Notes: a model not told the origin generated them from the letters alone. DNA of 64,000 bases from an uncultured Methanosarcinales archaeon (GCA_964453185.1 CAYVNN010000002.1:55843-119842); one strand, 5' to 3'; positions 4,918 to 29,091 are shown, numbered from the stretch's first letter. Translations and numbers: made by a program.

Positions 4918-4959
4918 AAAAATAAGTTAACATCAATTGTTTAAAAAAGTTACTAAAAT

Positions 4960-5060: not shown

Positions 5061-5083
5061 ATTAAAAAAATAAAATAAAAGAA

Positions 5084-12335: not shown

Positions 12336-14909
12336 ATGAAACATAGTATTTGGACAGAAAAATATAGACCTTCAACATTTGAAGAGATAAAAGGTCAAAA
12401 AGACGCAATTTCTAAGGTTAAAGCATTTGTTGAGCAAAAAAACATGCCGCACTTAATGTTTGCAGGTCCAGCTGGCGTTGGTAAAAGTACAACTGCTTTA
12501 GTTATAGCAAAACAATTATTTGGCAAAGAATGGAGAAATAATTTCCTTGAACTTAATGCATCTGACGAGAGAGGAATTGATGTAATCAGAGTAAAAGTTA
12601 AAGATTTTGCAAGGACAAGAGCCATAGGTGATGTACCATTTAAAATCATCTTCCTTGACGAGTGTTTAGATTATAATTCTAAAATTATTGTACAATCAAA
12701 CTATGGCATTGAAGAAGTTTCTATTGGTAATTTCGTTGAAAATTTTGATTTTCAAAATTATAAAATCATGTCTGTAGATGATAGTGGAGACATGATTTAT
12801 TCAAAAATTACCAAAACTATGAAGCTTCCTCATAATGCTAGTCATGGATACTACAAAATTAAAGTACATGATAAAGAAATAATTGTAACAGGAAATCATG
12901 AATTTTTATCAATTAATGGGTGGAAAAGAGCTGATGAGTTGAAGATAAAAGATCTAGTTCTATGCCCACAAAAAATTCCAATTATTAACAGAATCGAATC
13001 TAATAAACCATTGATATACAATTTAATAGGTTTACCACAGGAGATAAGAAAAAAAGAGAGATATTTACCACAGGAGATAAGAAAAAAAGAGAGATATCTT
13101 CCAAGATCACCTGAAAAACAAATTATTGAATTATTAGGAAAATATCCGGAAGGTTTAACTAGAGAAGAAATAACATTAAAAAGTAAAGTAAGTACTTCAA
13201 AAATAACTTCTATTTTAAGTGATAAAAACAATGTTTATTACATTCCACTAAGAAAACATAAGATCATTAAGAAAAATAAAGACAGATATATTTTAGGAGA
13301 TAATACAGGCAATTCCCTAGACAAGCTTTATAAAATTAAAAGGACACAAAATAATACAAATCAAGAATTCATCTTAACTCAACTTAAATCAAAAGAATTA
13401 TTTCCTATAAAAAGAGAAAATGCAATAATCTGTGCTAGGATTTTAGGGCACCTATTTAGTGATGGTTGTTTAACCCTTAAAAGTAAGCAACTATTTTTCT
13501 CTGGAAAAGAAGAGGATTTAAAAACTATAAAGAAAGATCTTAATAAATTAGGCTATTATTCATTAGGTAATATTAGACATTCAAAATGGAAAAAAGGTGA
13601 ATGTTGGTCTTTTGGAGCTTATAAACTAGAGTTATTAAGCTTATTTTACTCATTAGGTGCCCCAGTAGGAAAAAAGACAGACAATGTAGTAAGAATCCCT
13701 GAATGGATAATGGACAGTGACTTAACTATACAATCAGCATTCTTATCTGCCCTCTTTGGTGGAGATGGTTATGAACCAAAGTTCCAAGGGAGAACAGTCA
13801 AACAAATATTAATAGGAATCTCTAAGCGAGAAGATTTACAAAATAACCTAATTGAGTATCTGAAACAAATACAACAGTTACTTTCCAGATTTAATATAAC
13901 CTCAAGATATAGAATTTGTCCAGGTTATAAATCCACACGGAAAGACAATACAAATACTATTGAAGGCAGAATCTGGATTACTAATTCAATGGAAAATATT
14001 TATAAATTTCTAACTAAGATTGGATATTCATATTGCCAATATAAAGAAAAAACTACAAAAGATGTTATAAAATATTTGGATTGGAAAAAGAGTTTAGGAA
14101 AATTTATTTACACATTTAAACCAGTCCCTTATTTCTATGAATGGAGAGAAAATCTTATGCTTGGTGATTCTTCCTATCATTATGTAACATCTATTGAAAA
14201 AATTAAAGATCCAGATTTTGTATACTGTGTATCTACAGAATCTGGAAGATTTATAGCAAATAATATTGTAGTACATAATTGTGATGCTCTAACAAAAGAA
14301 GCACAACAAGCTCTGAGAAGAACAATGGAAAACTATACATTAACCACAAGATTTGTTTTATCATGTAATTATTCTTCAAAAATCATTGATCCAATCCAAA
14401 GTAGATGTGCAATGTTTAGATTTAAACGTCTACAACAAGATGAAATCATTGATTTAATCAATCATATTGCTACAGCAGAACAATTAAATATCGACGAGGA
14501 TGCAAAAAAAGCATTATACACAGTTTCTGAGGGAGATTGTAGAAAAGCAGAGAATATATTACAATGTTGTACTGCAATTAACAAACACATAACAAAAGAC
14601 CTAATATTTAGTATGGCATCTGTTGCAACACCAACAGAAATCAGAGAAATGCTAGAATTAGCTATTAATAATAAGTTTGTCGACGCTAGAAACAAATTAT
14701 TAGATACAATGTTAAAGTATGGTTTAAGTGGAATTGATATAATCAAACAAATAAACAGAGAAATCTGGAAACTAGATATCGACGACAAAATGAAAGTACA
14801 ACTCATCGACAAATGCGGAGAAACTGAATTCAGAATGACTGAAGGCAGTGATGAGTATTTACAACTTGAAGCATTATTAGCTAATTTTACTCTGTGTAGT
14901 TTGAAATAA
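12336..14909 (+). CDS. rfcS: replication factor C small subunit interrupted by an intein
   Basis: N-terminal EKYRPSTFEEIKGQ...FAGPAGVGKST Walker A, and IIFLDE|C...VVHN|CDALT Walker B split by the intein. C-terminal SRCAMFRFKRL sensor region. Confidence 0.9.
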   Translation: MKHSIWTEKYRPSTFEEIKGQKDAISKVKAFVEQKNMPHLMFAGPAGVGKSTTALVIAKQLFGKEWRNNFLELNASDERGIDVIRVKVKDFARTRAIGDVPFKIIFLDECLDYNSKIIVQSNYGIEEVSIGNFVENFDFQNYKIMSVDDSGDMIYSKITKTMKLPHNASHGYYKIKVHDKEIIVTGNHEFLSINGWKRADELKIKDLVLCPQKIPIINRIESNKPLIYNLIGLPQEIRKKERYLPQEIRKKERYLPRSPEKQIIELLGKYPEGLTREEITLKSKVSTSKITSILSDKNNVYYIPLRKHKIIKKNKDRYILGDNTGNSLDKLYKIKRTQNNTNQEFILTQLKSKELFPIKRENAIICARILGHLFSDGCLTLKSKQLFFSGKEEDLKTIKKDLNKLGYYSLGNIRHSKWKKGECWSFGAYKLELLSLFYSLGAPVGKKTDNVVRIPEWIMDSDLTIQSAFLSALFGGDGYEPKFQGRTVKQILIGISKREDLQNNLIEYLKQIQQLLSRFNITSRYRICPGYKSTRKDNTNTIEGRIWITNSMENIYKFLTKIGYSYCQYKEKTTKDVIKYLDWKKSLGKFIYTFKPVPYFYEWRENLMLGDSSYHYVTSIEKIKDPDFVYCVSTESGRFIANNIVVHNCDALTKEAQQALRRTMENYTLTTRFVLSCNYSSKIIDPIQSRCAMFRFKRLQQDEIIDLINHIATAEQLNIDEDAKKALYTVSEGDCRKAENILQCCTAINKHITKDLIFSMASVATPTEIREMLELAINNKFVDARNKLLDTMLKYGLSGIDIIKQINREIWKLDIDDKMKVQLIDKCGETEFRMTEGSDEYLQLEALLANFTLCSLK
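12663..14279 (+). other. intein (539 aa) with a LAGLIDADG homing endonuclease domain inside rfcS
   Basis: Begins with Cys at the DE|C junction and ends with HN, followed by Cys. Two LAGLIDADG-like motifs: ILGHLFSDGCL and LSALFGGDGY. Confidence 0.8.
13035..13100 (+). repeat. perfect tandem duplication (2 x 33 nt) inside the intein, encoding PQEIRKKERYL twice
   Basis: ccacaggagataagaaaaaaagagagatattta followed by ccacaggagataagaaaaaaagagagatatctt. Confidence 0.9.
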
Positions 14910-16661: not shown

Positions 16662-17570
16662 TTAATCCCAAAGTTCAGGATTTTCATTGATTCTTACAAC
16701 TTCTGCAATGTAGTCTTGGTAATAATATGTTAAAGTCAGATCAACTTGTTTAGTATACAATGCATCTTCTTCTAACTCATCACTTCTACATCTAATAGTT
16801 ATAATGTCTTCTTCTCCAGATCTTGACATTCTTGCAACAGAAGCATCGCCTTTTGCAGTACATGTAAATCCATCTGTGTTTACTTCAAAACCCACTTGAT
16901 CATAGAGATTTGAAAAATCATCACTTAGATAAGCTTTTGCTCTTCCTGCTCCTGCATTATAGACAGGTATTTCTAAATAGATTCTTCCATTACCTGCTGG
17001 TCTTTCTGTTACTCCACCAATTTGTATTGGACCTGCTGAAGCATAGGCTGTCTTTGAACCATACACATCACAATATCGTTCATCCTTAAGATCTTCTTTA
17101 AAACAAACTCTTGGAACTGCAATTTGTGTTGTATAAGGATATGTATATTCTAATAAAATATTTGCATCATAGAATGTTCCAGTCAATCCATCATATTTTA
17201 GATCACCTAAATCTACAACATCATAATCTCCTTCTGGTAAAAATTGTGAAACCTTTTCTAATTCATCATCATTAGTTACTTCAAAACTAATTCCTGAAAA
17301 GTCTGAAGGAGAGATTCCTTTAATTTCCATATAAATTTCATTAGATAATATTGTATGTTCACCTAAATTTTCTAAGATAACAACCAAAGGGAATGTTTCA
17401 TCTTCATAAATTTCATTTGTATCTATTTGAAAACTTGCAACTAATCCATATGTTCCACCATAGTATGGACTAACTACAGCTGCATCTGTCTGTGCAGTAT
17501 TTCCACAACCTGTAGATACAATTAGAATGATAACAGCAAGCATTATTAGTAATAGATTTCTTACACGCAT
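16662..17570 (-). CDS. secreted lipoprotein (paralog 1 of 3)
   Basis: Start at the ATG at 17570 (MRVRNLLLIMLAVIILIVSTGCGN), preceded by a GGAGG RBS. The longer track ORF runs into repeat copy B. The C-terminal region is similar to the two downstream genes. Confidence 0.5.
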   Translation of the reverse strand: MRVRNLLLIMLAVIILIVSTGCGNTAQTDAAVVSPYYGGTYGLVASFQIDTNEIYEDETFPLVVILENLGEHTILSNEIYMEIKGISPSDFSGISFEVTNDDELEKVSQFLPEGDYDVVDLGDLKYDGLTGTFYDANILLEYTYPYTTQIAVPRVCFKEDLKDERYCDVYGSKTAYASAGPIQIGGVTERPAGNGRIYLEIPVYNAGAGRAKAYLSDDFSNLYDQVGFEVNTDGFTCTAKGDASVARMSRSGEEDIITIRCRSDELEEDALYTKQVDLTLTYYYQDYIAEVVRINENPELWD

Positions 17571-17651
17571 AATATATCCCTCCTTAATTATAAGTATATA
17601 CTTAATATACCTCTTTATATAATTTGTGGTAAAAATAACAATACTAGCATT

Positions 17652-17753
17652 AAAACCAGCGCCTTGAGTCACTATCTTATTTCTTCATAACTACGCACTA
17701 AAATATGTTGCGTTAATGAAAATTCCTCATAATGCCAGACTCGCTCTGGTTTT
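17652..17753. repeat. structured inverted-repeat element, copy B (CATTAAAACCAGCGCCTTGAGTCACTAT ... AATGCCAGACTCGCTCTGGTTTTAATG)
   Basis: The terminal stem is changed on both arms (AAAACCAG/CTGGTTTT) and the inner stem is changed on both arms (GAGTC/GACTC) relative to copy A. The core CGCCTTG..CACTAT / AATGCCAGA..CGC is retained. Confidence 0.75.
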
Positions 17754-17774
17754 AATGATTCATTATTGACTTTA

Positions 17775-19112
17775 TCATATCGTAGCAGGTATAAACTTAC
17801 ATATTTCTGAAACACCTGTTCCCTGGATTGTCTTTCCATATATATTCAATGTTTTCAGTGTATCCATTGAAAAAGATCCACCATAAGGACATGAATCAGA
17901 TGGTAATGCACTTAATCCACAATATGGAACTGAATAAGTTGAATCACTATAACCATGAATTTCATAATTAACCAAGTCTCCTTTATTATAATTAATCTGA
18001 TGAACATTTTCACCTGCCCCACAAATATACATATTTCCATCAATATATATACAAATACAACCTTTCCATTTATTTAAATTAGCATCACTACAAGGACAAC
18101 CAGTCCCATAACCACCATCACTACTGCCGCCATCATTCGGATCATCAGTATAAACTGGACTTGATGCTTCATATCTTTCATCATCAAAAACACTTGTTAA
18201 TTCTCCACCAGCTTTATAGACACTAACCTCATGTTGAATTGTTTCAGAATATCCATACTCTAATTTAACTAAAACAGGAGTTTGATAAGCTGATTCTTCT
18301 CTCAATGTAAACTTACATTGAATAACTCCAACACCATTCACTAATTTAACTAAATTATCACCAGGGGTACATTGTGCATCCCCCAATCCTGTAATTTCCA
18401 TACTAACTTTTACATAATTCAAATCATCTTGATCAAAACTATACGGACAATTTTCAAATGCAGTTAAATCCTCTGGCTTGTAAACAATACCATTACCTTT
18501 ATTTTCAATTGTCATGATTAAATTAACTTCATTTCTTAATAATTCTGTTTGCACATTAGTAACTGCAACTGGTGCACCTTGTGAAGATAAATAAACAGGT
18601 TCAGTAGTACAAACTTCTCTCTGTTCATAATCACTATAATCATAAATCAAACAAACAACAGGATTAGCAATAGTTTCATAATTATAACATGTACTAAGTT
18701 GTATTGTTGCATCATAACTTTCTCCTAACTGAACTTCTAATGTTCCGGTCTCTTCAACCTCAACAAACTCAGAACTTCCTTCAGGTAAAAAAGGATCAAT
18801 ACCTTCTAACTCTGGCAAATGAATTTCTTCATCTTTAATTTTAATAACTTCTCTATCAAAACCAGATAATAATATCTTACCTTTTGCATCATCAAATGCC
18901 CCTTTATTACTTATCTCAATTTCTAAATTTAAATAATCATTATCATAAAATAATTCTTGTGTTGTTGCAAACTCTACCTCAATTCCATCTGTTCCAGAAC
19001 GATAATCTTCATCACCATAACCACTATTACTAAAAACACAACCTGTAGAAAATAAAACTACAATAATTAAAACAACATAAACACTTTTTCTAAACAAATT
19101 ATTTATTTTCAT
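17775..19112 (-). CDS. secreted lipoprotein (paralog 2 of 3)
   Basis: Signal peptide with an STGC lipobox-like motif. Shares SQGAPVAVT and LEYGYSETIQHEV blocks with the neighbouring genes. Confidence 0.5.
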   Translation of the reverse strand: MKINNLFRKSVYVVLIIVVLFSTGCVFSNSGYGDEDYRSGTDGIEVEFATTQELFYDNDYLNLEIEISNKGAFDDAKGKILLSGFDREVIKIKDEEIHLPELEGIDPFLPEGSSEFVEVEETGTLEVQLGESYDATIQLSTCYNYETIANPVVCLIYDYSDYEQREVCTTEPVYLSSQGAPVAVTNVQTELLRNEVNLIMTIENKGNGIVYKPEDLTAFENCPYSFDQDDLNYVKVSMEITGLGDAQCTPGDNLVKLVNGVGVIQCKFTLREESAYQTPVLVKLEYGYSETIQHEVSVYKAGGELTSVFDDERYEASSPVYTDDPNDGGSSDGGYGTGCPCSDANLNKWKGCICIYIDGNMYICGAGENVHQINYNKGDLVNYEIHGYSDSTYSVPYCGLSALPSDSCPYGGSFSMDTLKTLNIYGKTIQGTGVSEICKFIPATI

Positions 19113-19113
19113 T

Positions 19114-20385
19114 TTAATTTACATATGACTTCTCAATAACTATTTCTTTTGATATTGAATGCATATATCCATAATCAAATTCCATATAAAGTTGTGTTGA
19201 ATATGATGCTTGATCTTTTTTAATTACACCTTCTTTAACAGTACATCTTATTTTCCCTTCACCATCTGAATCTAACCTAATTGGACTTGATGTACACTCA
19301 ATTGTATCAGGATCATTATCCAATACAAACTCTTTATGAGATGTTGTATTGTATCCATTAAATCTATAGATTATATTTTCATTTGATAAAACTAATTTAT
19401 TCATAACTACCATATCATAATCATATCTATCTAAACCAATAGCTGAACATGCATCTGATGTTTTCTCACTATTAATTATACTTCCTTCTTCCATATTTTT
19501 CACAGTAATAACAAACTGTGGTCTGATATATTCTGTTCCATCTGAATCAGTGAATGGAATAATATTTGTTTCAATCTTTGTTATAGCCAGAGGAGCTCCT
19601 TGACTATTTAACATAATGTCTTCTGTATCACAAACAGGATCAAAAACAGATAAATGTCCAATATCAGTATCAAGACATACTTCTTGTTCCAATTGTGTAC
19701 TATAAGCATAACAAGCTGACGCAATAATTGCTGATTCATGTTTTTCACTTAATTGTCCAGGAGATTTTGCTCTTGCTTTGAATGTTATCATATCAACTCC
19801 ACCAGATGGATTATAAATGGATCTGGGTTCTAACATTAATACTTGTGTTTTCTCAGAGATTGTACCAGATAATAATTTCATTTTTTCCTTTTGAAAAGAA
19901 TTATAAATCCCTTCCAAATATTCCACCCCTTCAAACAATTCTTGTCTTTTATCTGAATCAGTTGTTGTTTCATACTCTTCCATTAATTCATTTATTTCTA
20001 ATTCAATTTCATTTAAATTAGAAGTAATTTGTGTTAATAAACTCAATGTCCCGGCATCATAACTTCCAACATCATCAATATCAAAACAATCATCATTATC
20101 ATCTAAGATACACATAAAATCCTCTTCAATACTTAATGATAAATAACCTGTTAAAAAGTATGCCCCAGCATTGTTAACATCAATTGAAATATCAAACTCA
20201 GTTCCTTCTAAAACTTCATCTGGCGGAACATTTTCAAAGAATTCCATTTCTAAAGAATCTGTCCCTTGAAAATATTCAGCATTTGAAATAATATAACCAT
20301 CTGTTGAACCAAACCCACCTGTACAACCAGTTATAACTAATAAAACCATTACAAACAATAATCCAAAAACAATTTCTTTTTTCAT
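19114..20385 (-). CDS. secreted lipoprotein (paralog 3 of 3)
   Basis: Signal peptide with ITGC. Shares SQGAPLAIT and EFDYGYMHSISKE blocks. Confidence 0.5.
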   Translation of the reverse strand: MKKEIVFGLLFVMVLLVITGCTGGFGSTDGYIISNAEYFQGTDSLEMEFFENVPPDEVLEGTEFDISIDVNNAGAYFLTGYLSLSIEEDFMCILDDNDDCFDIDDVGSYDAGTLSLLTQITSNLNEIELEINELMEEYETTTDSDKRQELFEGVEYLEGIYNSFQKEKMKLLSGTISEKTQVLMLEPRSIYNPSGGVDMITFKARAKSPGQLSEKHESAIIASACYAYSTQLEQEVCLDTDIGHLSVFDPVCDTEDIMLNSQGAPLAITKIETNIIPFTDSDGTEYIRPQFVITVKNMEEGSIINSEKTSDACSAIGLDRYDYDMVVMNKLVLSNENIIYRFNGYNTTSHKEFVLDNDPDTIECTSSPIRLDSDGEGKIRCTVKEGVIKKDQASYSTQLYMEFDYGYMHSISKEIVIEKSYVN

Positions 20386-20394
20386 TCTTTTACC

Positions 20395-23300
20395 TTACGA
20401 AGCCATTGAAGCAAACTGACCCAATGGTACATACTCAAATTGTACCTTTGTGTAATCAGGTAAAACAGTTCCTTCAACAGTATCTCTTTTTCTGACGTAA
20501 AATCCTTGTGAATCTTTTTCATCACACTGTCCCATTACATCATCATCTTCCCATTCAATTGTACAAAATTCTTTAAAATTACCCATATAATCTTTATAAT
20601 AAAGAAATATTTCATCATCTTCATACTTGGTCCAGATAAATCCAGTCCAAACTTCAACCTCATCTGCTCCTTCAATTAAATAATCTGAATTAATAACTGA
20701 ATATGCTAATATTTCATAATTAAAACTCATTAATTTCCCATCCTCTACCACAACATAATAACTAAATGCAGGATTATTATCAATATAAATCCATCTTTCA
20801 GAATATTCTTCTGATGTTGGAATTGTTCCTTCATAAACTGTTTCTGTTTGATTATTCGTGTAAATAAAAATCTTTAATTTCTTTGAATCATCAATACTAA
20901 TTATTAATTTAGTTCCTGATGTGTCTAAATCAATTGTTTCAGAAAAATCTTTTGTTTCACCATTAATTGTAAAACTTCCTTGTACTAAAAAGTTGTCCTC
21001 ATTTGTTTCTGATTTTAATTCTCCACTTTGCACAAGATTAAGCTCTTGAACTTTTTTATAATATGTTTCAACTAACTGAACATATAATCTAACCTGTTCA
21101 TAGTCGTCGTCATACTCACACCAATACCTTTTATCCCCTATACAATCTTGACTATCACAAAATACACCAACATATTCTCCATCTCTAATTCCACAAACAC
21201 CACCATAATATGTTGCTAACAAGTATTCTCTATTTAATTCAGGATCTTCTGAATCAAAAGGAATATTTTCATTATTTAATAAATCATACATTCTCCTTAC
21301 ACCAAACCTAATGTTTGTATCTGGATCAAATAAATCATAATCAACTATTCCCAATTCTGCAGCAATAACTGCAGCATCCTCTTCTGTTATCTGCATTAAT
21401 CCATTTGTTTCACCAAGAGGAGAAGATAATCCCACTGTTGTTGGATCATTCTTAGAACCTGCTGCAATCATTGCAATAACTAATTGTGGATCCATACCAT
21501 ACCTATCAGACCACTCTGAGATACTATTTGGACTTGAAGCATAATAAATAGTATAAATATCACTAACTAATTCATCTGGTTTTCCAGTATAAGATTCTTC
21601 TGATTTTGAATATGATGTTTCCGCATAACCTGCTGCAGTATCTGACTCAATCACCTTAACAGATGTGTCTTCAACAATTTTATAATCATACCTTGCTTTA
21701 ACAAAGAAATACTTTGTAGATATTGGTGTATTTCCTAATAGCTTATGTTCATCAACAATATCTAATCTACAATTGTATGAAACAAAATCTTCAATATCTT
21801 TGTAATGATTGGTGTTTCTTGAAGTGTCTAAATAATATGCATTATATCCATCTAACTCTTCTTGACATTTTAATAATAAGCATGCTCTCATTGTATCATC
21901 TGTAACTGCACCTTCATCTTCACATGCTCTATAGAAAGCAGTTTCATATTCTACATTACTACTTACACATCTATCCTCTGTATATTCTTTAAAATTAGTA
22001 TCTGAACAAGTATCAAGATCAAGTTCCATTGAATCTGGAATTATAACAACAATCTCTTTTATCTCTTCAATCATTCCATCCCAGTTTGTGTCAGCATCTA
22101 ATGTAATTCCTAATCTTGGTTTAACCTGATATGTTGAATCAATTCCTGTTAATGCACTATCTGGACCTATACCTAATCTAATTGGACCATTTGAATATCT
22201 TGCAACAGGATCTTTATCTTCCACTTGATACTGATCTAATAAATCAACACCATCTTTTAATGCAGAATTTAATCTATCTCTACTTGTAAAATATCTTTTA
22301 ACATAACCAATTGTTTCAAAATTAAACTTTGATTCAAATGTAACAGCATGTGAACCAGGACTTAATTTATTTTGAGGAATAGTACAATCAATTTCTTCCT
22401 GCTGCATATCATAAACTTCCATTGTTGCTGGATAAACTTCACCATAAACTTTACTTGTACCTTTTCCAGCATAACATGTTGTATTAATTTGCACCATATC
22501 ATCCAATGTTCTTGCCATTAATATTGCAAACACTGTAACTCTTTCATCTTCATAGAACTTTTCCTTTGAAGCCATAACATCTTCAATATAAACACCAAGC
22601 TGTTCTTCTTCATTCTCCTCAACCTGTCCAACATAATAGGTCGATGTGAGTTGTTTCTTTCTTATTTCCCAAATATCTCCAAACCTTGAAAATGCACCCC
22701 ATGTTGATGTAAATATTTGAGAACCACCTTCAACAAACTTATCCTTTAATACTAGAAATGCATCCCATCTTTCATAATCAGCTGTATCTAATTCTAAATC
22801 AGTAAAACCATACATTTGTCCCATACCATATGAAAGTATGATAAAGACCCACCACATAATAATTAAGAATCTTGATAACCTAATATACCATAACTTTGCT
22901 TCACTTCCTCTATAAACTGCATAGTAAATCCATGTTAACATAATAAATCCATTTGCTACAAACAAACGAATAAAATCAATAGATGCAATCATACTACTTG
23001 ATGCAACCATCCATGGAACAATAACCTCTATACAAAAACATACCAACATAATACGATACGTTTTTCCATTTCTCTCACTAGGATGAAAAATAAATAAGAT
23101 AGGCACAAGAATCATCCAAAATAAATTAAGAAAAATCCTATTTTTAATAGACAACCTTGATCCAATAACAACTGCATGATAAATACAAGCAAAAACAAAG
23201 AACCAAAATATACTAGAATTAGTTCTTCTTTCATCTTCATCTGCTCCACCTTTGAACAGATTAATGATTCCTTTACCACCATAATAAAAAGGAATAGATA

Positions 23301-23739
23301 AACCACGTGTAACAGCATTATGTGTTAAGAATTTACCAAAGCCTTTTGCTCTTTGCCATAATAAACTAGTTAATTGCTTTTTTCTATCTAACTCATCCAT
23401 TCCTTTAGCATGTCTTAATGCTTGAATCTTTGCAGTTAAATCAGAAAGATTAGCTTTATTTTCATTATGAGAATCTTTAAAATCTTTCCAAGGTTGTTGA
23501 AAAGTAGGCTTTACTGCATGTTCTTTCACATGAGGTAAGCCCAAATCTTTAGCCTTAGTCCAATTAGAATGAGCCATATCTACGGCTTCTGTTTTAGCAG
23601 CACCCCATGCCTTACCTGCTCCTGACTTAGTCTTACTCCAAGCAGCACTACTTACAGCTTTAGCTCCTGACTTAGTCTTACTCCAGGCAGCACTACCTAC
23701 AGCTTTAGCTCCTGCCTTAAATCCAGCCCATGATACCAT
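20395..23739 (-). CDS. giant (about 1114 aa) multi-TM protein with a large ectodomain containing an SLT-like (lytic transglycosylase) segment
   Basis: Start at the ATG at 23739 (MVSWAGFKAG), preceded by GAGGT. The longer ORF merely translates repeat copy C. Tandem AKAV(G/S)SAAWSKTKSG repeats are followed by about 6 TM helices. The ectodomain contains IAMIAAGSKNDPTTVGLSSPLGETNGLMQI, which resembles the SLT catalytic region but has Gly where the catalytic Glu is expected. Confidence 0.5.
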   Translation of the reverse strand: MVSWAGFKAGAKAVGSAAWSKTKSGAKAVSSAAWSKTKSGAGKAWGAAKTEAVDMAHSNWTKAKDLGLPHVKEHAVKPTFQQPWKDFKDSHNENKANLSDLTAKIQALRHAKGMDELDRKKQLTSLLWQRAKGFGKFLTHNAVTRGLSIPFYYGGKGIINLFKGGADEDERRTNSSIFWFFVFACIYHAVVIGSRLSIKNRIFLNLFWMILVPILFIFHPSERNGKTYRIMLVCFCIEVIVPWMVASSSMIASIDFIRLFVANGFIMLTWIYYAVYRGSEAKLWYIRLSRFLIIMWWVFIILSYGMGQMYGFTDLELDTADYERWDAFLVLKDKFVEGGSQIFTSTWGAFSRFGDIWEIRKKQLTSTYYVGQVEENEEEQLGVYIEDVMASKEKFYEDERVTVFAILMARTLDDMVQINTTCYAGKGTSKVYGEVYPATMEVYDMQQEEIDCTIPQNKLSPGSHAVTFESKFNFETIGYVKRYFTSRDRLNSALKDGVDLLDQYQVEDKDPVARYSNGPIRLGIGPDSALTGIDSTYQVKPRLGITLDADTNWDGMIEEIKEIVVIIPDSMELDLDTCSDTNFKEYTEDRCVSSNVEYETAFYRACEDEGAVTDDTMRACLLLKCQEELDGYNAYYLDTSRNTNHYKDIEDFVSYNCRLDIVDEHKLLGNTPISTKYFFVKARYDYKIVEDTSVKVIESDTAAGYAETSYSKSEESYTGKPDELVSDIYTIYYASSPNSISEWSDRYGMDPQLVIAMIAAGSKNDPTTVGLSSPLGETNGLMQITEEDAAVIAAELGIVDYDLFDPDTNIRFGVRRMYDLLNNENIPFDSEDPELNREYLLATYYGGVCGIRDGEYVGVFCDSQDCIGDKRYWCEYDDDYEQVRLYVQLVETYYKKVQELNLVQSGELKSETNEDNFLVQGSFTINGETKDFSETIDLDTSGTKLIISIDDSKKLKIFIYTNNQTETVYEGTIPTSEEYSERWIYIDNNPAFSYYVVVEDGKLMSFNYEILAYSVINSDYLIEGADEVEVWTGFIWTKYEDDEIFLYYKDYMGNFKEFCTIEWEDDDVMGQCDEKDSQGFYVRKRDTVEGTVLPDYTKVQFEYVPLGQFASMAS

Positions 23740-23766
23740 TATTAACCTCTTTTTTACAGCTATAAT

Positions 23767-23899
23767 AATGCCACCGCCTTGACTCACTATCTACTATATA
23801 GCGAAGGCGCTAAAAGTCTTTATACGTACAGCAGTGACTTAGTAGCATGCAATGCTACTACCTTCCCTCTACACATCGTGCCAGAGTCGCCGTGGCATT
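23767..23899. repeat. structured inverted-repeat element, copy C
   Basis: AATGCCACCGCCTTGACTCACTAT ... TGCCAGAGTCGCCGTGGCATT. Inner stem GACTC/GAGTC. The internal module TATAGCGAAGGCGCTAAAAGTCTTTATACGTACAG is shared with copy G. Confidence 0.75.
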
Positions 23900-24008
23900 A
23901 TTAACCTCTTTTTTAGTTTTACAACTACCTCAACTTAAATTCTAGAACTTCTTATATATAATATTTATGCATTTATGTATATAATAATTAAAACAAAAAA
24001 AGAAAATC

Positions 24009-25724
24009 TTAATACTCTTCTATCTCAACAACCAATTTTCTAATATCTAATGTTGTTAAATCTGGTTCAATCTTTATTGAATTACTTCCTTCTTCAACAT
24101 AATCAGTTATTGTTCTCATGTAATCATCACTATAAGTATCAACATATGATTTATGTCCATTAATGTAAACATGAGCTGCTTTATGTTCTGTATCATCTGC
24201 AAAATAAAGATATAATACAACTTCATAACCTGGTTTAACCTTCATCACTTCATCATATGAATCACTTCCTGTACTTGGACATTCTGAACTATAACTTCTT
24301 CCATTGCTATAATAAGTGGATGGACAATCATCACACTCATTTTCATTCAATGAAGTTTCACAAACATTTTCTAAACCATAGATTGGAACATCATTACACC
24401 AGAAATTATCTTCGTCTTTTTCAAAACAACAATCTCTGTCATAATACTCACTACACCCAGATGGACAATAATCATCATGATCATCTCCACATCTATCCTC
24501 ACATTCCTCTGGAGCATAACCATTATCATCTTCATAACCTGACACACATCTATCACATTTTGAAGTGTCTGCTTCTGTTACTGAAGCACATCTATCATCT
24601 TCGTCGTCAGGTTCAATGTCACACCAATAATTATTACTTCCTTCGAAGCAACAATCAATATCTAAATCTTCATCACATCCAACCGGACAATAATCATCAA
24701 CATCTCCACATTCTCTTTCTATTAAAAACTGTTCATGTTTGTATTCTTCTGAGAAGTAAAACAATGTTTCTGTTAAATCAAAATAATAAACAGGATAAGT
24801 TTGTTCTTTTAACTCAGTCTCCACCATTATTTGATAAATTAAATACGTTCCTTCATCTGTTTTAAAGATAACAGAATTATCACCTGCTGAAATCACACTT
24901 GGTGAAAACTCAACAATATTAATCTGACCACAATCAGGTATTGATGAATAAATATTTTCATTATTAACATAAATCTTTAAAGCTCCAACACCTCTTGGTG
25001 TACAGTCTGGGAAAAACTTCATTTTAACACTTTCAATATTAAATTTCTCAGTATCTGTAACAGTAAATGTGTTCTTACTTGATTGTTCACTAATATCTGT
25101 AACATCTCCTGTGATCTTAATACCTGTTAATTGATACTCATTTGTTGTCCAAAAAGCAAAACCAACATCACTTACTTCAAATGTTAACAAATTTTCATAT
25201 TCAAGGTTTCTATCTGATAAATCCAAAGGATCCATTATGCCAGTGACCTCATTATCAAATATTTTTTCTCCATTTAGATAAATAGACAATCTTCCTTTTG
25301 CTCTTTCTAAATTAAATGATAATAAAATATTTTCTGTATTTTCTAAGTCATCGATTGTAAAGGTTAAATTTCTAAACAATTTATCAAAAATTCCATTCTT
25401 AATATACAACGACTCTTCTGAAAAGAGTGTTTCTGCTTCTGTTACAGTATAAAGATTAACAGCCGATAATTGATGTTCATACTCACTAAATTTAAGATAA
25501 TCAATTCTTCCAGGTGATTCTTCCATTATTGTTTCATTATAAATAACAACATCACCATAATCAGTTGACCCTGAACTTCCTCCTGATGTAGATATAGATC
25601 CTGTTTCACCTAACAAATCTTGTCTAACATCTGCTGGTAAGAATAAGATATAAAGTATAAGCATACCTGCAACCAATGCAACTAGTGTAGCTGCTCCACT
25701 TGCTGTTTGACCTTTTTTAAACAT
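24009..25724 (-). CDS. pilin-like (class III signal peptide) surface protein with two Cys-rich modules
   Basis: N-terminal MFKKGQTASGAATLVALVAGMLILYILF fits the archaeal prepilin (KG|Q) class III signal. C-terminal duplicated module CGDVDDYCPVGCDEDLDIDCCFEGSNNYWCD / CGDDHDDYCPSGCSEYYDRDCCFEKDEDNFWCND. Confidence 0.55.
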   Translation of the reverse strand: MFKKGQTASGAATLVALVAGMLILYILFLPADVRQDLLGETGSISTSGGSSGSTDYGDVVIYNETIMEESPGRIDYLKFSEYEHQLSAVNLYTVTEAETLFSEESLYIKNGIFDKLFRNLTFTIDDLENTENILLSFNLERAKGRLSIYLNGEKIFDNEVTGIMDPLDLSDRNLEYENLLTFEVSDVGFAFWTTNEYQLTGIKITGDVTDISEQSSKNTFTVTDTEKFNIESVKMKFFPDCTPRGVGALKIYVNNENIYSSIPDCGQINIVEFSPSVISAGDNSVIFKTDEGTYLIYQIMVETELKEQTYPVYYFDLTETLFYFSEEYKHEQFLIERECGDVDDYCPVGCDEDLDIDCCFEGSNNYWCDIEPDDEDDRCASVTEADTSKCDRCVSGYEDDNGYAPEECEDRCGDDHDDYCPSGCSEYYDRDCCFEKDEDNFWCNDVPIYGLENVCETSLNENECDDCPSTYYSNGRSYSSECPSTGSDSYDEVMKVKPGYEVVLYLYFADDTEHKAAHVYINGHKSYVDTYSDDYMRTITDYVEEGSNSIKIEPDLTTLDIRKLVVEIEEY

Positions 25725-26004
25725 AAAATCACCTGTTTTTTATGTGTAAATAACATCCTCAGGTCAAAACACCAACAAAAACAAACATAATGCTCGTTGC
25801 GAGGGGTTGTCCCTCCGGGAACGCAGAGCCTTAATTAACCTTAGCCTGTGTTTTGAAGATGTTATTTACATACCTTTTTTATAGATTATTAAGTATTATA
25901 ATATCTATTTTTAAATATTGATATATATAAGGTTTTCTATTTTAAGAAATGAGATAAACTACCTATCCAATATATCACAGATCCTACTAAAATAAGGATC
26001 ATCT

Positions 26005-26265: not shown

Positions 26266-27327
26266 ATGAAAATTATCCACAAAGACATAAAGAAAGGTAT
26301 TGTTAAGCTAGCTATAAACAATCTTGATGATTTATGGTATCTTAGCAATATTATAGACATGGGAGATTTAGTTAGAGGTAAGACCCAAAGAAAAATCAAA
26401 CTAGGTGGAGAAACAGATAGATCAAATAAAGTAATAACAAAAATAATTACATTATCAATTAATGTTGAAAAGATTGAATTTCATAAATATTCAAATGTAT
26501 TAAGGGTTTCTGGAAAAATTGCTGAAGGTAATGATGATGTTCCAAAAGGTAGTTATCACACAATAAATTTAGAACCAGGAACAACAATAACTATCATAAA
26601 GAACAAATGGTTAAAGTTTCAACTTGATAAATTAAATGAAGCATGTAAAGAAAAGAAAATGAAGATTTTAATCTGTACATTAGACAGAGAAAATGCATTC
26701 TTTGCACAAATGAAAAGATATGGTTATGAAATTTTAGGAGAAATAAAAGGAGATGTAAAAAAGAAAGCAGACATTAAACAAGATAAAAAGAAATCTTTTT
26801 ACACAGAAATCATTAAACAATTGAAAGATTACGACGACAGATTCAAATTAAACAAAATTGTAATTGCAAGTCCTGCTTTCTGGAAAGAATATTTAGCAAA
26901 TGAATTAAAAGGAAATGAGTTACAAAAAAAGATAGTTTATGCAACATGTAATTCAACAGGAGAAGGTGCAATCCAAGAAGTTTTAAAAAGGCCTGAAGTA
27001 ATTTCTGCAATTAAAGATGACTTAATAATTAAAGAAATTAATTTAATTGAAGAAGTAATGGGAGAAATTTCAAAAAATAATTTAGCAGCATATGGTTTTG
27101 ATGAAGTTGAAAAAGCATCAAACCTTGGAGCAATTAAAGATTTACTTGTTGCTGATTCATTAATACATAAAACAAGAGAAGAAGGTACTTATCAAAGATT
27201 AGACAATATTATGAAAACAGTAGATAATTCTAAAGGAGAAATCCACATAATTAGTTCTGAACACGAAGGCGGCCAAAGACTAAATGGTTTAGGTGGAATT
27301 GCCGCAATATTAAGGTATAAAGTATAA
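26266..27327 (+). CDS. pelA: Pelota/Dom34-like mRNA surveillance factor
   Basis: 353 aa. eRF1-like C-terminal domain ending LNGLGGIAAILRYKV; N-terminal beta-rich domain. It is shorter than aRF1 and lacks a NIKS motif. The EGGQ near the C-terminus is not in the aRF1 GGQ position. Confidence 0.65.
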   Translation: MKIIHKDIKKGIVKLAINNLDDLWYLSNIIDMGDLVRGKTQRKIKLGGETDRSNKVITKIITLSINVEKIEFHKYSNVLRVSGKIAEGNDDVPKGSYHTINLEPGTTITIIKNKWLKFQLDKLNEACKEKKMKILICTLDRENAFFAQMKRYGYEILGEIKGDVKKKADIKQDKKKSFYTEIIKQLKDYDDRFKLNKIVIASPAFWKEYLANELKGNELQKKIVYATCNSTGEGAIQEVLKRPEVISAIKDDLIIKEINLIEEVMGEISKNNLAAYGFDEVEKASNLGAIKDLLVADSLIHKTREEGTYQRLDNIMKTVDNSKGEIHIISSEHEGGQRLNGLGGIAAILRYKV

Positions 27328-27347
27328 ACATTGACATATACAATAGT

Positions 27348-27368
27348 ACCACCGCCTTGGCTCACCAT
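27348..27368. repeat. solo 5' half of the structured element (ACCACCGCCTTGGCTCACCAT), 21 nt after the pelA stop
   Basis: Matches the 5' core of copies A-G. No 3' partner within 100 nt. Confidence 0.6.
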
Positions 27369-27418
27369 TTACTTTACATACCATACTTTTATATATACTA
27401 ACTATTTACTTACTATTT

Positions 27419-28306
27419 ATGGATATAAGAAATGTACAAAGAACAGGGAAAATGCACTATGTTTATTTACCTACAACATGGTGTAAAACAAACAATATTA
27501 GTGGAGATTCAAAGATAATTCTTGAGACAAATAGAGATGGAACATTAAAGATATTTCCCCAATTAGTAGAAAGAAAACCAAAAAAACTTAATTTAAAGAT
27601 TAACGAAGACGATGAAGATATTATCCATAAATTAATTATTGCATGTTATATGAGTCCTGCTTCTGCATTTAAAATTCAATTAGAAAAAAACATAGATTAT
27701 ACAAAATTACTAAATCAAAAAAAATTAGTTAGTTTAGAATTAGTTGAATTAAGTAAAGATAAAGTAATCTGTGAATCATCAGTAATTGCAGGAGATACTG
27801 CTTCTCTAATCAGAACAATGATTAGAAAAATTAGAAACCTATTCACAATAATGTTAAAAAACTATGACAAAGAATTAATTGAAAAATATGAAGAAGAAAT
27901 TGATAGAAACAGACTATTAGTTGAGAAGTCAGTTATAGGAAGTTTAACACATTGTAGAACTCACAAATTAAAAAACATTGATTTATATTATATTGGAACA
28001 ATTTCAAGAAATCTAGAAAACATTGTAGACTTAGCAATCCTTCTCGACAAAAAAGAAAATAAATTTATTACAAAACTTACAAAAATAATGGATAATCTTA
28101 AGAAATTAATGAAAGATATAAGTAATGAAGATAATCCATCTCCTAATTATAAAGATGCAATCAAATTCACAAAAGAAGTTTCAAAACTAGAAGATGAAAA
28201 AGTAACAAATGTTTCTACATATATTAAAAAGAGAATTAAAACAGGTTTTTCAGAAATCTCTGAGACAATTATGGATTGGGGCATAACTAAAGAATTAGAA
28301 AAGTAA
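27419..28306 (+). CDS. AbrB-like N-terminal domain + PhoU-like regulator
   Basis: N-terminal IRNVQRTGKMHYVYLPTTW resembles the SpoVT/AbrB N-terminus of archaeal PhoU-family regulators. The rest is helical and repetitive. Confidence 0.45.
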   Translation: MDIRNVQRTGKMHYVYLPTTWCKTNNISGDSKIILETNRDGTLKIFPQLVERKPKKLNLKINEDDEDIIHKLIIACYMSPASAFKIQLEKNIDYTKLLNQKKLVSLELVELSKDKVICESSVIAGDTASLIRTMIRKIRNLFTIMLKNYDKELIEKYEEEIDRNRLLVEKSVIGSLTHCRTHKLKNIDLYYIGTISRNLENIVDLAILLDKKENKFITKLTKIMDNLKKLMKDISNEDNPSPNYKDAIKFTKEVSKLEDEKVTNVSTYIKKRIKTGFSEISETIMDWGITKELEK

Positions 28307-28320
28307 TTCTCAAATACAAT

Positions 28321-28476
28321 AATGCCACCGCCTTGGCTCATTATCCTATCACAACATAGTATAGCGACAGGATATAGCAAAAGCAATTTTTGCTTTCTGC
28401 TTATTACGAAAAGCTTGCTTTGAGTATACGGTTTGTACATTATACATACACATTGAGTCAGAGCCGCAGTGGCATT
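28321..28476. repeat. structured inverted-repeat element, copy E (longest, 156 nt)
   Basis: AATGCCACCGCCTTGGCTCATTAT ... TCAGAGCCGCAGTGGCATTAT. Begins 15 nt after the stop of 27419..28306. Confidence 0.75.
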
Positions 28477-28565
28477 ATCTAGTTCTAACAATATATACAG
28501 TAATATACAAAAAACACACTTCTTCAGGGAAAACTTTAAAAATTAAAAAAAATTCAAGTATTCTA

Positions 28566-28776: not shown

Positions 28777-29091
28777 TTATTCTATATCCCCTGTACACAT
28801 CCAATTAATTTCTGCTGTTCTTGTTTCTAAATCAACAACACATGCAGGATTACAACCATCTTTTTCTAGATCCAAATCAATCCACATTGTATTTGTGTTT
28901 TCATTACAAGTATAAATATCATATAAAGCCTTTCCCTCCTCAACACATTCACTGTTTTCTACAGCTTCTATTGCATATTTGTATGGTACTCCATTACATT
29001 TAACTCCCATTTCAATTTTTTCTCCAGGATAATCACATCCAACTATAAACATCAAACTAATTAACATACATATTGTTATTATTCTTTTCAT
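28777..29091 (-). CDS. small secreted Cys-rich lipoprotein
   Basis: Signal peptide followed by IVGC; 8 Cys. Confidence 0.45.
   Translation of the reverse strand: MKRIITICMLISLMFIVGCDYPGEKIEMGVKCNGVPYKYAIEAVENSECVEEGKALYDIYTCNENTNTMWIDLDLEKDGCNPACVVDLETRTAEINWMCTGDIE

What the first reader, a model, noticed from the sequence alone, without database searches (positions are those of the whole stretch)
16662..25724. Surface-protein island: three tandem paralogous lipoproteins, a 1114-aa TM/SLT-like protein and a class-III-signal Cys-rich protein
Five consecutive minus-strand genes all encode exported proteins. The three lipoproteins (about 300-445 aa) share C-terminal blocks (SQGAP[VL]A[VI]T, [LE][EF][YD]YGY). 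The giant downstream protein has N-terminal 15-aa tandem repeats, 6 TM helices and an ~800-aa ectodomain. The final gene has an archaeal type IV pilin-like signal. Two repeat elements (B and C) lie within the island. In a reduced-genome archaeon this looks like a dedicated attachment or host-interaction apparatus, and none of its components has a recognisable described family.
Basis: inference. Interest (0 to 1): 0.65.

Follow-up and report, generated by a model that had tools for sequence, protein, structure and literature searches.

The report
Conserved Woesearchaeal surface operon with dead transglycosylase
Five neighbouring genes encode a membrane-anchored cell-surface complex that is conserved in the same order and place across Woesearchaeota-type archaea, and whose largest subunit carries a bacterial-cell-wall (murein) module that has lost its catalytic residue in this genome; it is a candidate device for gripping bacterial cell walls.

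Summary
Five co-oriented genes (24009-25724, 20395-23739, 19114-20385, 17775-19112, 16662-17570, minus strand) encode a protein with a class-III-like signal, a 1114-aa polytopic protein with a Pfam SLT domain, and three lipobox paralogs.

It is not a variable island. The order Pelota(-) | g5-g4-lipo1-lipo2-lipo3 | RFC(-) recurs in most of about 80 species-level Woesearchaeota/Nanoarchaeia loci. The three lipoproteins are ancient, position-specific orthologous groups. g5 evolves about as slowly as Pelota and RFC.

Structure models show all-beta Ig/CARDB/macroglobulin-like sandwiches, not substrate-binding proteins.

The g4 family has 1044 representatives. Every catalytic Pfam domain found fused to its conserved core is a murein hydrolase: SLT in 20 of 49 sampled, plus one amidase_2 and one phage-tail lysozyme. 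In this genome and its close relatives the SLT catalytic Glu is replaced (G761) and motif III is degenerate, so the module is probably a binding pseudo-enzyme. A separate canonical secreted SLT lies at 36792-38159.

Best reading (inference): a heteromeric surface complex that docks on bacterial peptidoglycan. Large SLT proteins of Woesearchaeota were already noted in the literature. I found no description of the operon, its conservation or the catalytic loss.

The parts
24009..25724 (-). g5: 571-aa acidic surface protein. It has a class-III (prepilin-like) signal and N-terminal hydrophobic helix, beta-rich domains (aa ~60-322 and ~489-571), and a Cys-rich double repeat (CG.vDg.CP.GCdeD.D.DCCF...WCD...RC, aa ~339-470) that is a lineage-specific insert.
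   Evidence: ORF. More than 322 homologs at 40-69% identity, all Woesearchaeota/Nanoarchaeota, none with a Pfam domain. Conserved K[GA]Q motif and invariant Cys pattern. The short ~390-aa form in other lineages lacks aa ~323-488. It evolves at about the rate of Pelota and RFC.
23748..23908 (-). MITE-like repeat element inserted in the g5-g4 spacer. Its ends (TAATAATGCCAC.GCG.CTCTGGCA ... GTGAG.CAAGGCGGTGGCATTATT) pair as a stem. It is flanked by a 19-nt duplication of g4's RBS+ATG (AAAAAAGAGGTTAATAATG).
   Evidence: Repeat families D6/D7, sequence, alignment of 5 copies, fold z=-2.6. It is absent from all related loci. The g5-g4 gap is 269 nt here against ~105 nt in L001 and L007.
20395..23739 (-). 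g4: 1114-aa polytopic membrane protein (ATG start). It comprises a cytoplasmic N-terminal region, 5 TM helices, a stalk helix, a conserved beta-sandwich ectodomain core, an SLT-like module and a C-terminal beta domain.
   Evidence: ORF, Pfam SLT, AF2 model with pLDDT 66, hydropathy, homologs.
23618..23707 (-). Two tandem 45-nt (15-aa) repeats, KAV[GS]SAAWSKTKSGA, in the N-terminal cytoplasmic region of g4. They are genome-specific.
   Evidence: D12, 96% identity. Absent from homologs in A1.
22810..23229 (-). g4 transmembrane region (aa 171-310, five hydrophobic helices). Among close homologs it has conserved H188, N205, E222-R223 (SERNG loop), E238, P242 and W270-Y272-Y273-R277.
   Evidence: The TM profile does not detect distant orthologs, whereas the ectodomain profile does.
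21640..22644 (-). g4 conserved ectodomain core (aa 366-700): tandem Ig-like beta sandwiches with conserved Cys. This is the universal signature of the family.
21190..21534 (-). g4 SLT-like (GH23 lysozyme-fold) module, aa 736-850. Motif I is A-G-S instead of E-S (G761 at the catalytic Glu position). Motif II GLMQ is kept. Motif III is TYYGG instead of AYNxG.
   Evidence: Pfam, alignment to MltC, family alignments, profile against PDB E~2e-5.
20398..21024 (-). g4 C-terminal beta domain (aa 906-1114). It is confidently modelled and fast-evolving.
   Evidence: pLDDT 80-88. 18-26% identity among close homologs.
19114..20385 (-). g3 (lipo1): 423-aa lipobox lipoprotein, a paralog with a helical insert (aa ~100-175). 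There is a 9-nt gap after g4.
17775..19112 (-). g2 (lipo2): 445-aa lipobox lipoprotein with two CARDB/MG-like beta sandwiches (aa 40-155 and 180-299), a linker and a Cys-rich C-terminal beta domain (340-445). There is a 1-nt gap after g3.
16662..17570 (-). g1 (lipo3): 302-aa lipobox lipoprotein (ATG start), the minimal two-sandwich paralog. It is the best-conserved of the three.
   Evidence: 73%, 61% and 48% identity to L007, L001 and L005.
17640..17775 (-). Degenerate copy of the same repeat element in the g2-g1 spacer. It causes the spurious GTG-extended ORF to 17672.
25738..25875 (-). Unique 138-nt long-stem hairpin immediately upstream of the g5 start, in an unusually long (541-nt) Pelota-g5 spacer. 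It may be a 5' leader structure or a solo insertion.
   Evidence: MFE -44.7 kcal/mol, z=-4.3. No other copy in the window or in the related loci. No Rfam family at gathering score.

Best explanation
The five genes form one conserved operon of Woesearchaeota-type archaea. They encode a heteromeric complex anchored on the outer face of the cytoplasmic membrane by five anchors: one prepilin-like N-terminal helix (g5), one five-helix bundle (g4) and three lipid anchors (g3, g2, g1). The ectodomains are stacks of disulfide-stabilised Ig/CARDB/macroglobulin-like beta sandwiches. g5, the g4 core and lipo3 form the slowly evolving base. The distal parts of g4 are modular and fast-evolving. Across the family, the module carried there is, whenever a catalytic Pfam domain is recognisable, a murein hydrolase (SLT, amidase_2 or phage-tail lysozyme). 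I therefore propose that the complex docks the archaeon onto bacterial peptidoglycan: a living host or prey cell, or wall debris. In Glu-bearing relatives it would also cut the glycan strands locally. In this genome the SLT module has lost the catalytic Glu (G761) and the YN of motif III, so it would act as a glycan-binding lectin-like head. Cleavage, if any, would be left to the separate secreted canonical SLT at 36792-38159. Shown: gene set, signals, paralogy, synteny, orthology of the three paralogs, folds, domain fusions, loss of catalytic residues. Inferred: that the five proteins assemble together, the topology, the murein target, and the division of labour with the second SLT.
For: Operon: same strand, with gaps of 9 nt (g4-g3) and 1 nt (g3-g2); g4 and lipo1 overlap in L001, L003, L007 and L011. 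Conservation: of 66 loci with >=1.5 kb downstream of g5, 55 have a g4-like gene next. Of 47 loci with >=8 kb downstream, 40 have g4, 33 have >=3 lipoproteins and 34 have RFC(-). Of 65 loci with upstream sequence, 49 have a divergent Pelota. Position-specific orthology of the three paralogs holds across 35 loci (95%, 87% and 95% same-position best hits), as expected for non-redundant subunits. g5 identity tracks that of Pelota and RFC. Folds are all-beta sandwiches. Murein link: SLT Pfam hit in g4 and in distant orthologs L024, L061 and L044. Census of 49 family representatives: SLT 20, Amidase_2 1 (1.4e-24), Phage_lysozyme2 1 (4.9e-20); the other hits were non-catalytic (fn3 in 3, beta/gamma-crystallin in 1) or marginal (Gaa1, E=7e-4). 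Catalytic position: Glu in 46 of 73 SLT-bearing members and non-Glu in 22, including all close relatives of the window protein. Canonical secreted SLT elsewhere in the window with E-S, GLFQ and AGYNGG motifs. Literature: murein and pseudomurein are not reported for this lineage, and SLT proteins of Woesearchaeota are read as anti-bacterial or attachment factors (PMC8204110, PMC9723730, PMC11915815).
Against: More than half of the g4 family has no recognisable murein-hydrolase module (29 of 49 by Pfam; 85 of 158 by my profile). The shortest orthologs are only TM + core (L006, 490 aa). So the core function does not require such a module in cis. Strict synteny with housekeeping genes and the slow evolution of g5 and lipo3 fit a housekeeping envelope structure better than an arms-race adhesin. 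The cluster is also present in a 1.84-Mb Woesearchaeota chromosome (L005/L020), which is not an extremely reduced genome. No physical interaction, expression or localisation data exist. The g4 model is only moderately confident (pLDDT 66, pTM 0.36), especially in the SLT region. Absence of a murein-like polymer in these archaea was not tested here. GH23-fold proteins can also act on chitin-type glycans (own knowledge).
Confidence: 0.45

Rival explanations
1. Housekeeping envelope scaffold. The five proteins build the archaeon's own surface layer or pseudo-periplasmic lattice (an S-layer-like or S-layer-anchoring structure). The murein-hydrolase modules are optional add-ons in some lineages and are not the purpose of the complex.
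For: The cluster is near-universal and sits at a fixed chromosomal position between Pelota and RFC. g5 and lipo3 are as conserved as housekeeping proteins. The three ancient paralogs are kept in fixed order. The ectodomains are acidic Ig-like sandwiches, as in many archaeal surface-layer proteins (the comparison is from own knowledge). Many family members lack any hydrolase module.
Against: It does not explain why every catalytic Pfam domain found fused to the core is a murein hydrolase, in organisms not known to make murein. None of the five has a recognisable S-layer domain. S-layer proteins usually evolve fast, whereas g5 does not.
Confidence: 0.33
2. Part of a type IV pilus-like, pseudopilus or secretion machine. 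g5 would be a large pilin-like subunit processed by a prepilin peptidase, and g4 would be its membrane platform with a wall-piercing transglycosylase, analogous to the VirB1/PrgK-type specialised transglycosylases of bacterial machines.
For: A conserved class-III-like motif and hydrophobic N-terminal helix in g5. An SLT module attached to a polytopic membrane protein.
Against: No secretion or pilus ATPase, PilC/FlaJ-like platform or prepilin peptidase lies in or next to the cluster in any of ~80 loci, and none was found among the window ORFs scanned. g5 is 390-570 aa, far larger than known pilins. The g4 TM region is not conserved in distant orthologs, which argues for an anchor rather than a channel or platform.
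Confidence: 0.08
3. The three lipoproteins are substrate-binding proteins of a transporter, and the cluster is a nutrient-uptake locus.
For: Lipid-anchored extracytoplasmic proteins in tandem are typical of ABC uptake systems (own knowledge). Class III signals occur on Sulfolobus sugar-binding proteins (own knowledge).
Confidence: 0.02
4. A horizontally acquired or virus-derived island (for example a prophage lysis or adsorption module).
For: SLT domains are bacterial or phage-typical. There are weak PHROG hits to the SLT part. One family member carries a phage-tail lysozyme domain. A MITE-like element sits inside the cluster.
Against: Composition is native. Chromosomal synteny is conserved across the lineage. 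There are no relatives on 2.9 million viral contigs. The other four proteins give no PHROG hits.
Confidence: 0.02

Closest known systems
Large extracellular SLT-domain proteins of Woesearchaeota/Pacearchaeota (protein family fam00969 of Castelle et al. 2021, PMC8204110; GH23 proteins of Vigneron et al. 2022, PMC9723730)
   Same: Same lineage. Large membrane-bound or extracellular proteins with a murein-type lytic transglycosylase domain, already proposed to bind or degrade bacterial cell walls.
   Different: Whether g4 belongs to fam00969 was not tested. I did not find in those papers the conserved TM + Ig-like core, the five-gene operon, its fixed Pelota/RFC context, or the fact that a whole clade, including this genome, lacks the catalytic Glu.
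Bacterial family-1 lytic transglycosylases (Slt70, MltC, EmtA; Pfam PF01464, CAZy GH23)
   Same: Sequence-detectable homology of aa ~740-850 (Pfam E=3e-10; profile against PDB E~2e-5), with motif II GLMQ retained.
   Different: The catalytic Glu of motif I is replaced by Gly, and motif III is TYYGG instead of AYNxG. The module is fused behind a 5-TM anchor and a ~335-aa Ig-like core. The host is an archaeon.
Specialised transglycosylases attached to envelope-spanning machines (VirB1/PrgK/FlgJ type; own knowledge)
   Same: A lysozyme-fold module is tethered to a membrane-embedded multiprotein assembly rather than acting as a free enzyme.
   Different: The cluster has no ATPase, channel or filament components. 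The wall to be breached would belong to another organism.
CARDB and macroglobulin-type beta-sandwich surface proteins (PF1109 CARDB domain 3idu; bacterial alpha-2-macroglobulin lipoprotein 4u48)
   Different: No sequence match to the Pfam CARDB or MG models. Only 2-3 domains. No thioester motif. The resemblance is at the level of a very common fold.
Archaeal class III signal-peptide proteins (type IV pilins; Sulfolobus bindosome binding proteins; own knowledge)
   Same: An N-terminal [KR]-[GA]-Q motif followed by a ~20-residue hydrophobic helix and a Pro.
   Different: 390-570 aa. No adjacent assembly genes. Processing was not shown. It could simply be a signal anchor.

Membership tests
SLT / GH23 family-1 lytic transglycosylase (PF01464) | Significant match to the family model above the curated cut-off | tested here: met
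   40.1 bits against a cut-off of 21.3, E=3e-10, aa 740-844. Profile against PDB LTs E~2e-5.
SLT / GH23 family-1 lytic transglycosylase (PF01464) | Catalytic glutamate in motif I (E-S) | tested here: not met
   G761 aligns with the MltC catalytic Glu. All 12 close homologs also lack Glu. Glu is present in 46 of 73 SLT-bearing family members, in other clades.
SLT / GH23 family-1 lytic transglycosylase (PF01464) | Motif II (G-L-M-Q) and motif III (A-Y-N-x-G) | tested here: inconclusive
   GLMQI is present. Motif III reads TYYGG (N replaced by Y), whereas Glu-bearing orthologs keep YN.G.
SLT / GH23 family-1 lytic transglycosylase (PF01464) | Cleavage of the MurNAc-GlcNAc bond with 1,6-anhydro product | not testable with these tools
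   Needs an enzyme assay.
Lipobox lipoproteins | N-terminal positive n-region, hydrophobic h-region and [LVI..][AST..][GAS]-C lipobox | tested here: met
   g1 LIVSTGC, g2 VLFSTGC, g3 LLVITGC. The Cys is invariant in 30 homologs. Only 5 ORFs in the window have the pattern.
Lipobox lipoproteins | Actual lipid modification and signal cleavage | not testable with these tools
   Needs mass spectrometry.
Archaeal class III signal / type IV pilin-like proteins | [KR]-[GA]-[small/Q] cleavage motif followed by a hydrophobic helix | tested here: met
   KGQ/TASGAATLVALVAGMLILYILF, conserved across the 37 sequences of A3.
Archaeal class III signal / type IV pilin-like proteins | Associated assembly ATPase, membrane platform or prepilin peptidase | tested here: not met
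   None in the cluster in ~80 loci or among the window ORFs scanned. The rest of the genome was not examined.
ABC-transporter substrate-binding proteins | Two-lobed alpha/beta fold and a family model match | tested here: not met
ABC-transporter substrate-binding proteins | Adjacent permease and ATPase genes | tested here: not met
   The conserved neighbours are Pelota, RFC, and HD and HAD hydrolases.
CARDB domain (PF07705) | Match to the family model | tested here: not met
fam00969 (Castelle et al. 2021) large SLT proteins of Woese-/Pacearchaeota | Membership in that protein cluster | not tested
   The family's sequences were not retrieved. Lineage, SLT domain and size class agree (PMC8204110).

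The most novel reading that the evidence does not exclude
The operon encodes a lineage-defining archaeal machine for gripping and breaching bacterial cell walls. It would have a conserved five-anchor base (g5, g4 core, three lipoproteins) with an exchangeable 'head' on g4: active SLT, amidase, phage-type lysozyme, or, as here, a catalytically dead SLT used as a murein lectin. This would be the first defined molecular apparatus for archaeon-on-bacterium episymbiosis or predation. It would also be a genomic marker (head type and catalytic state) for predicting the lifestyle of uncultured Woesearchaeota.
Probability: 0.3. Interest if true: 0.8.

Novelty: new variant of a known kind. Interest (0 to 1): 0.55.

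Why it matters
Woesearchaeota are among the most widespread uncultured archaea, and whether they live on bacterial hosts is an open question. The literature infers 'murein-degrading' or 'vampiristic' lifestyles from the mere presence of SLT domains.

This analysis makes three points. First, the SLT protein is one subunit of a five-gene surface module conserved across the lineage. Second, the module's catalytic fusions point consistently to murein. Third, in a whole clade the catalytic residues are gone, so presence of the domain cannot be equated with wall degradation.

It also yields concrete, testable reagents: Glu-bearing against Glu-less heads, and five ectodomains for pull-downs and antibodies. 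These could be used on enrichment cultures and in binding assays.

Tried and rejected
- Sequence searches of the lipoprotein and g5 profiles against PDB sequences gave nothing useful.
- NCBIfam gave no hits except weak SLT-type matches for g4.
- PHROGs gave only SLT-related hits for g4.
- hhalign between the three families (g5, g4, lipoproteins) showed no detectable relationship. The idea that the g4 ectodomain is a further paralog of the lipoproteins is not supported at sequence level, although all are Ig-like sandwiches.
- The afdb50 library was unavailable.
- The first attempt at a genome scan with the 37-sequence g5 alignment failed because it was too diverse. A 12-sequence alignment worked.
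- The viral-contig scan for the g4 core gave no relatives.
- Rfam at gathering threshold gave nothing for the repeat element or the upstream hairpin.
- BLAST of the hairpin and the g5 upstream spacer against all fetched loci showed no conservation.
- An attempt to translate a possible small ORF in that spacer used the wrong frame and was not pursued.
- A search for type IV pilus or secretion machinery among the window ORFs found none.
- Cluster-member look-up gave no organism or protein names.

Full report
**1. What is in the sequence.**

The region holds five consecutive minus-strand ORFs:
- g5: 24009-25724, 571 aa.
- g4: 20395-23739, 1114 aa from the ATG.
- g3: 19114-20385, 423 aa.
- g2: 17775-19112, 445 aa.
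- g1: 16662-17570, 302 aa from the ATG.

The gaps are 269 nt (g5-g4), 9 nt (g4-g3), 1 nt (g3-g2) and 204 nt (g2-g1). GC content is 0.30-0.33, like the rest of the window.

g5 starts MFKKGQ/TASGAATLVALVAGMLILYILFLP. The K-[GA]-Q motif, the hydrophobic helix and the following Pro are conserved in 37 aligned homologs.

g1-g3 have lipobox signals. The lipobox Cys is invariant in a 30-member family alignment. Only five ORFs in the whole window carry such a signal.

The three lipoproteins are paralogs: g2-g3 E=1e-12 and g1-g2 E=5e-9.

g4 has these parts:
- a Lys-rich N-terminal region with two 15-aa tandem repeats;
- five hydrophobic helices (aa 174-310);
- a long helix;
- about 800 further residues.

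With positively charged loops at 218-229 and 278-287, five spans place the C-terminal part outside the cell.

g4 aa 740-844 match Pfam SLT above the curated threshold (E=3e-10). No other Pfam or NCBIfam family matches any of the five proteins.

**2. The 'repeat elements'.**

The two repeats inside the region are the two ends of one element. Its consensus ends are TAATAATGCCAC.GCG.CTCTGGCA ... GTGAGCCAAGGCGGTGGCATTATT, around a variable interior.

There are five copies or partial copies in the window, all in one orientation. The copy at 23748-23908 lies between g5 and g4. It is flanked by a 19-nt duplication of g4's ribosome-binding site and ATG.

Without this copy the g5-g4 spacer would be about 105 nt, as in relatives. 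The element is absent from all related loci and matches no Rfam family.

It explains the spurious GTG-extended ORFs 'MSQGGGII...' and 'MTQGAGF...'. I read it as a genome-specific MITE-like insertion, not as part of the apparatus.

**3. Conservation.**

g4 has homologs of about 1000 aa at 31-49% identity. g5 has more than 322 homologs at 40-69% identity. The lipoproteins have 28. Where named, all come from Woesearchaeota or Nanoarchaeota metagenome bins.

The contigs carrying these homologs show the same arrangement as the window: Pelota (divergent) | g5 | g4 | three lipoproteins | ... RFC small subunit (convergent).

A scan of one genome per GTDB species with a g5 alignment returned 80 loci. 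Some record titles say 'Methanosarcinales'. I take these as mislabels, because the loci share the Woesearchaeota synteny.

I searched the ORFs of these loci with profile HMMs built here:
- Of 66 loci with at least 1.5 kb downstream of g5, 55 have a g4-like gene next.
- Of 47 loci with at least 8 kb downstream, 40 have g4, 33 have three or more lipoproteins and 34 have RFC on the opposite strand.
- Of 65 loci with upstream sequence, 49 have a divergent Pelota.

These counts are lower bounds, because my profiles come from close relatives. One clade (L012, L013, L015, L017, L030) has a rearranged cluster.

Across 35 loci with exactly three lipoproteins, best cross-genome hits are position-specific: 95%, 87% and 95% for positions 1, 2 and 3. 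The triplication is therefore ancient and each paralog is retained as a distinct subunit.

Identity to the window proteins, for L007 / L001 / L005:

| Protein | L007 | L001 | L005 |
|---|---|---|---|
| g5 | 69% | 57% | 49% |
| Pelota | 71% | 56% | 55% |
| lipo3 (g1) | 73% | 61% | 48% |
| g4 | 43% | 34% | 28% |
| lipo1 (g3) | 49% | 37% | 31% |
| lipo2 (g2) | 48% | 39% | 36% |

g5 is thus about as conserved as Pelota, and lipo3 is similarly conserved. g4, lipo1 and lipo2 evolve faster.

This is a vertically inherited core operon, not an island. No relatives of the g4 core were found on viral contigs.

**4. Folds.**

The g2 model is confident (pLDDT 85.8) and all-beta. It has two sandwiches (aa 40-155 and 180-299), a disordered linker and a C-terminal beta domain.

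- macroglobulin domains of C3, C4, C5 and alpha-2-macroglobulin, including the Salmonella alpha-2-macroglobulin lipoprotein;
- RbmA and other Ig-like modules.

Profile-profile comparison finds no sequence relationship between g5, g4 and the lipoproteins.

Comparison with the ~390-aa form in other lineages shows that the Cys-rich double repeat (aa ~323-488) is a lineage-specific insert.

**5. The g4 family and its murein link.**

The universal part of g4 is the ectodomain core, aa 366-700. It is 46-60% identical among close homologs. The corresponding figures are 27-43% for the TM region, about 25% for the SLT-like part and about 22% for the C-terminal domain.

A profile of this core finds 1044 cluster representatives among 1.84 billion proteins, 480 of them at E<=1e-30. 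Orthologs range from 439 to 1383 aa. The shortest are just TM + core (L006).

Pfam scans of distant long orthologs again find SLT (L024, L061, L044; weakly L066 and L049).

In an every-third sample of 49 representatives:
- 20 have SLT;
- one has N-acetylmuramoyl-L-alanine amidase (1.4e-24);
- one has a phage-tail lysozyme (4.9e-20);
- three have fn3, one has a beta/gamma-crystallin domain, and one has a marginal Gaa1 match (E=7e-4).

Leaving the marginal Gaa1 match aside, every catalytic domain found fused to the core is a murein hydrolase. This is the main evidence for what the complex engages.

**6. Loss of the catalytic residue here.**

Aligned to MltC, the catalytic Glu of motif I (E-S) corresponds to G761. 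All 12 close homologs also lack Glu, carrying G, L, T, K or I instead.

Over 158 family members, 73 have an SLT-like region. The catalytic position is Glu in 46, another residue in 22, and unaligned in 5.

Glu-bearing orthologs (L005, L019, L021, L024, L032, L073) also keep the YN.G of motif III. The Glu-less clade has YY.G or similar instead. Loss in both motifs together indicates a pseudo-enzyme that may still bind glycan strands, since GLMQ is retained.

The same window encodes a separate 455-aa protein (36792-38159, plus strand). It has an RR-type signal and fully canonical motifs MIQES, GLFQIMP and AGYNGGP (Pfam SLT 7.9e-17). It could supply cleavage in trans; this is inference.

**7. Interpretation.**

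Shown: the gene set, the signals, the folds, the conservation and the fusions.

Inferred: the five proteins form one heteromeric complex on the outer face of the membrane. It would have a slowly evolving base (g5, g4 core, lipo3) and a modular, faster-evolving distal part on g4 that binds murein and, in many lineages, cuts it.

Murein and pseudomurein are not reported for this lineage (PMC8204110; PMC11915815 restricts pseudomurein to two methanogen orders). The target would therefore be bacterial wall: a host, prey or debris.

The main rival is a housekeeping envelope scaffold to which hydrolase heads are optional. It is favoured by the universality, the fixed genomic context, the slow evolution of g5, and the many head-less family members. 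I put the murein-docking reading at about 0.45 and the scaffold reading at about 0.33. The two are not fully exclusive.

Pilus or secretion, transporter and mobile-island readings are poorly supported (see rival explanations).

**8. Relation to the literature.**

Large SLT-domain proteins of Woesearchaeota and Pacearchaeota have been noted and interpreted as wall-binding or wall-degrading factors (PMC8204110; PMC9723730; cited in PMC12352652).

In five full-text searches I found no description of:
- the five-gene operon;
- the class-III protein and the three orthologous lipoprotein subunits;
- the fixed Pelota/RFC context;
- the clade-wide loss of the catalytic residues.

I therefore rate it a new variant of a known kind. 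It carries a caution for annotation-based 'murein-degrading' lifestyle calls.

**9. Limits.**

- There are no expression, localisation or interaction data.
- Topology rests on hydropathy and the positive-inside rule.
- The g4 model is of moderate quality.
- g5 is unmodelled.
- Synteny counts depend on profiles built from close relatives.
- Absence of wall synthesis genes and of pilus machinery was checked only in the window and the cluster flanks, not genome-wide.

Noticed in passing
window 36792-38159 (+): A second SLT protein (455 aa) with an RR-type signal peptide and fully canonical lytic-transglycosylase motifs (MIQES, GLFQIMP, AGYNGGP). Pfam SLT E=7.9e-17; best PDB match is a LysM/LT protein, 1.3e-7. 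It contrasts with the Glu-less SLT module of g4 and could be the active enzyme of the pair.
   Followed up: partly
window 4930-5080, 17640-17775, 23748-23908, 27315-27480, 28295-28495 (all minus orientation): A genome-specific MITE-like repeat with conserved stem-forming ends and a variable interior of 50-110 nt. It is absent from 87 related loci and has no Rfam match. The 23748-23908 copy is flanked by a 19-nt duplication of g4's RBS+ATG, which creates a decoy start. The element generates spurious GTG-extended ORFs.
   Followed up: partly
window 25738-25875 (-): A unique 138-nt long-stem hairpin (MFE -44.7 kcal/mol, z=-4.3) with a GC-rich interior, immediately upstream of the g5 start. It lies in a 541-nt Pelota-g5 spacer that is only ~140 nt in relatives. 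It is not repeated, not conserved in the fetched loci, and has no Rfam family.
   Followed up: partly
window 12336-14909 (+): The RFC small subunit is 857 aa here against ~320 aa in relatives. The extra ~530 aa interrupting the AAA+ domain looks like an intein. It contains an exact 33-nt tandem duplication (13031-13096, LPQEIRKKERY x2).
   Followed up: no
window 28777-29091 and 29104-29520 (-): Two small adjacent ORFs (104 and 138 aa) carry the only other lipobox signals in the window (..FIVGC, ..LIIGC). Neither has a Pfam family.
   Followed up: no
window 8313-12227 (-): A 1304-aa ORF with Gly/Pro-rich short-period repeats (around 10009-10125) and no Pfam hit. It has no obvious N-terminal signal. 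It may be another large structural protein.
   Followed up: no
window 47790-48108 (+): Archaeal RNase P RNA (Rfam RF00373, 127.6 bits). No tRNA genes were detected anywhere in the 64-kb window by ARAGORN.
   Followed up: no
loci L007, L008, L011, L021, L025 and others (genome contigs): Many GTDB-representative records carrying this Woesearchaeota-type cluster are titled 'uncultured Methanosarcinales archaeon'. This is apparently a taxonomic mislabel in the deposited TPA assemblies.
   Followed up: no
L012, L013, L015, L017, L030: In one clade (g5 ~51% identical) g5 is not followed by a detectable g4. In L013 the lipoprotein genes lie inverted beyond RFC, so the cluster has been rearranged there.
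   Followed up: no
window 45428-46120 (+), 33532-35520 (+), 38160-40243 (-): Context genes include an adenylate/guanylate cyclase domain protein, a membrane H+-pyrophosphatase, and acetate kinase with phosphotransacetylase. This is consistent with a fermentative DPANN-type metabolism.
   Followed up: no
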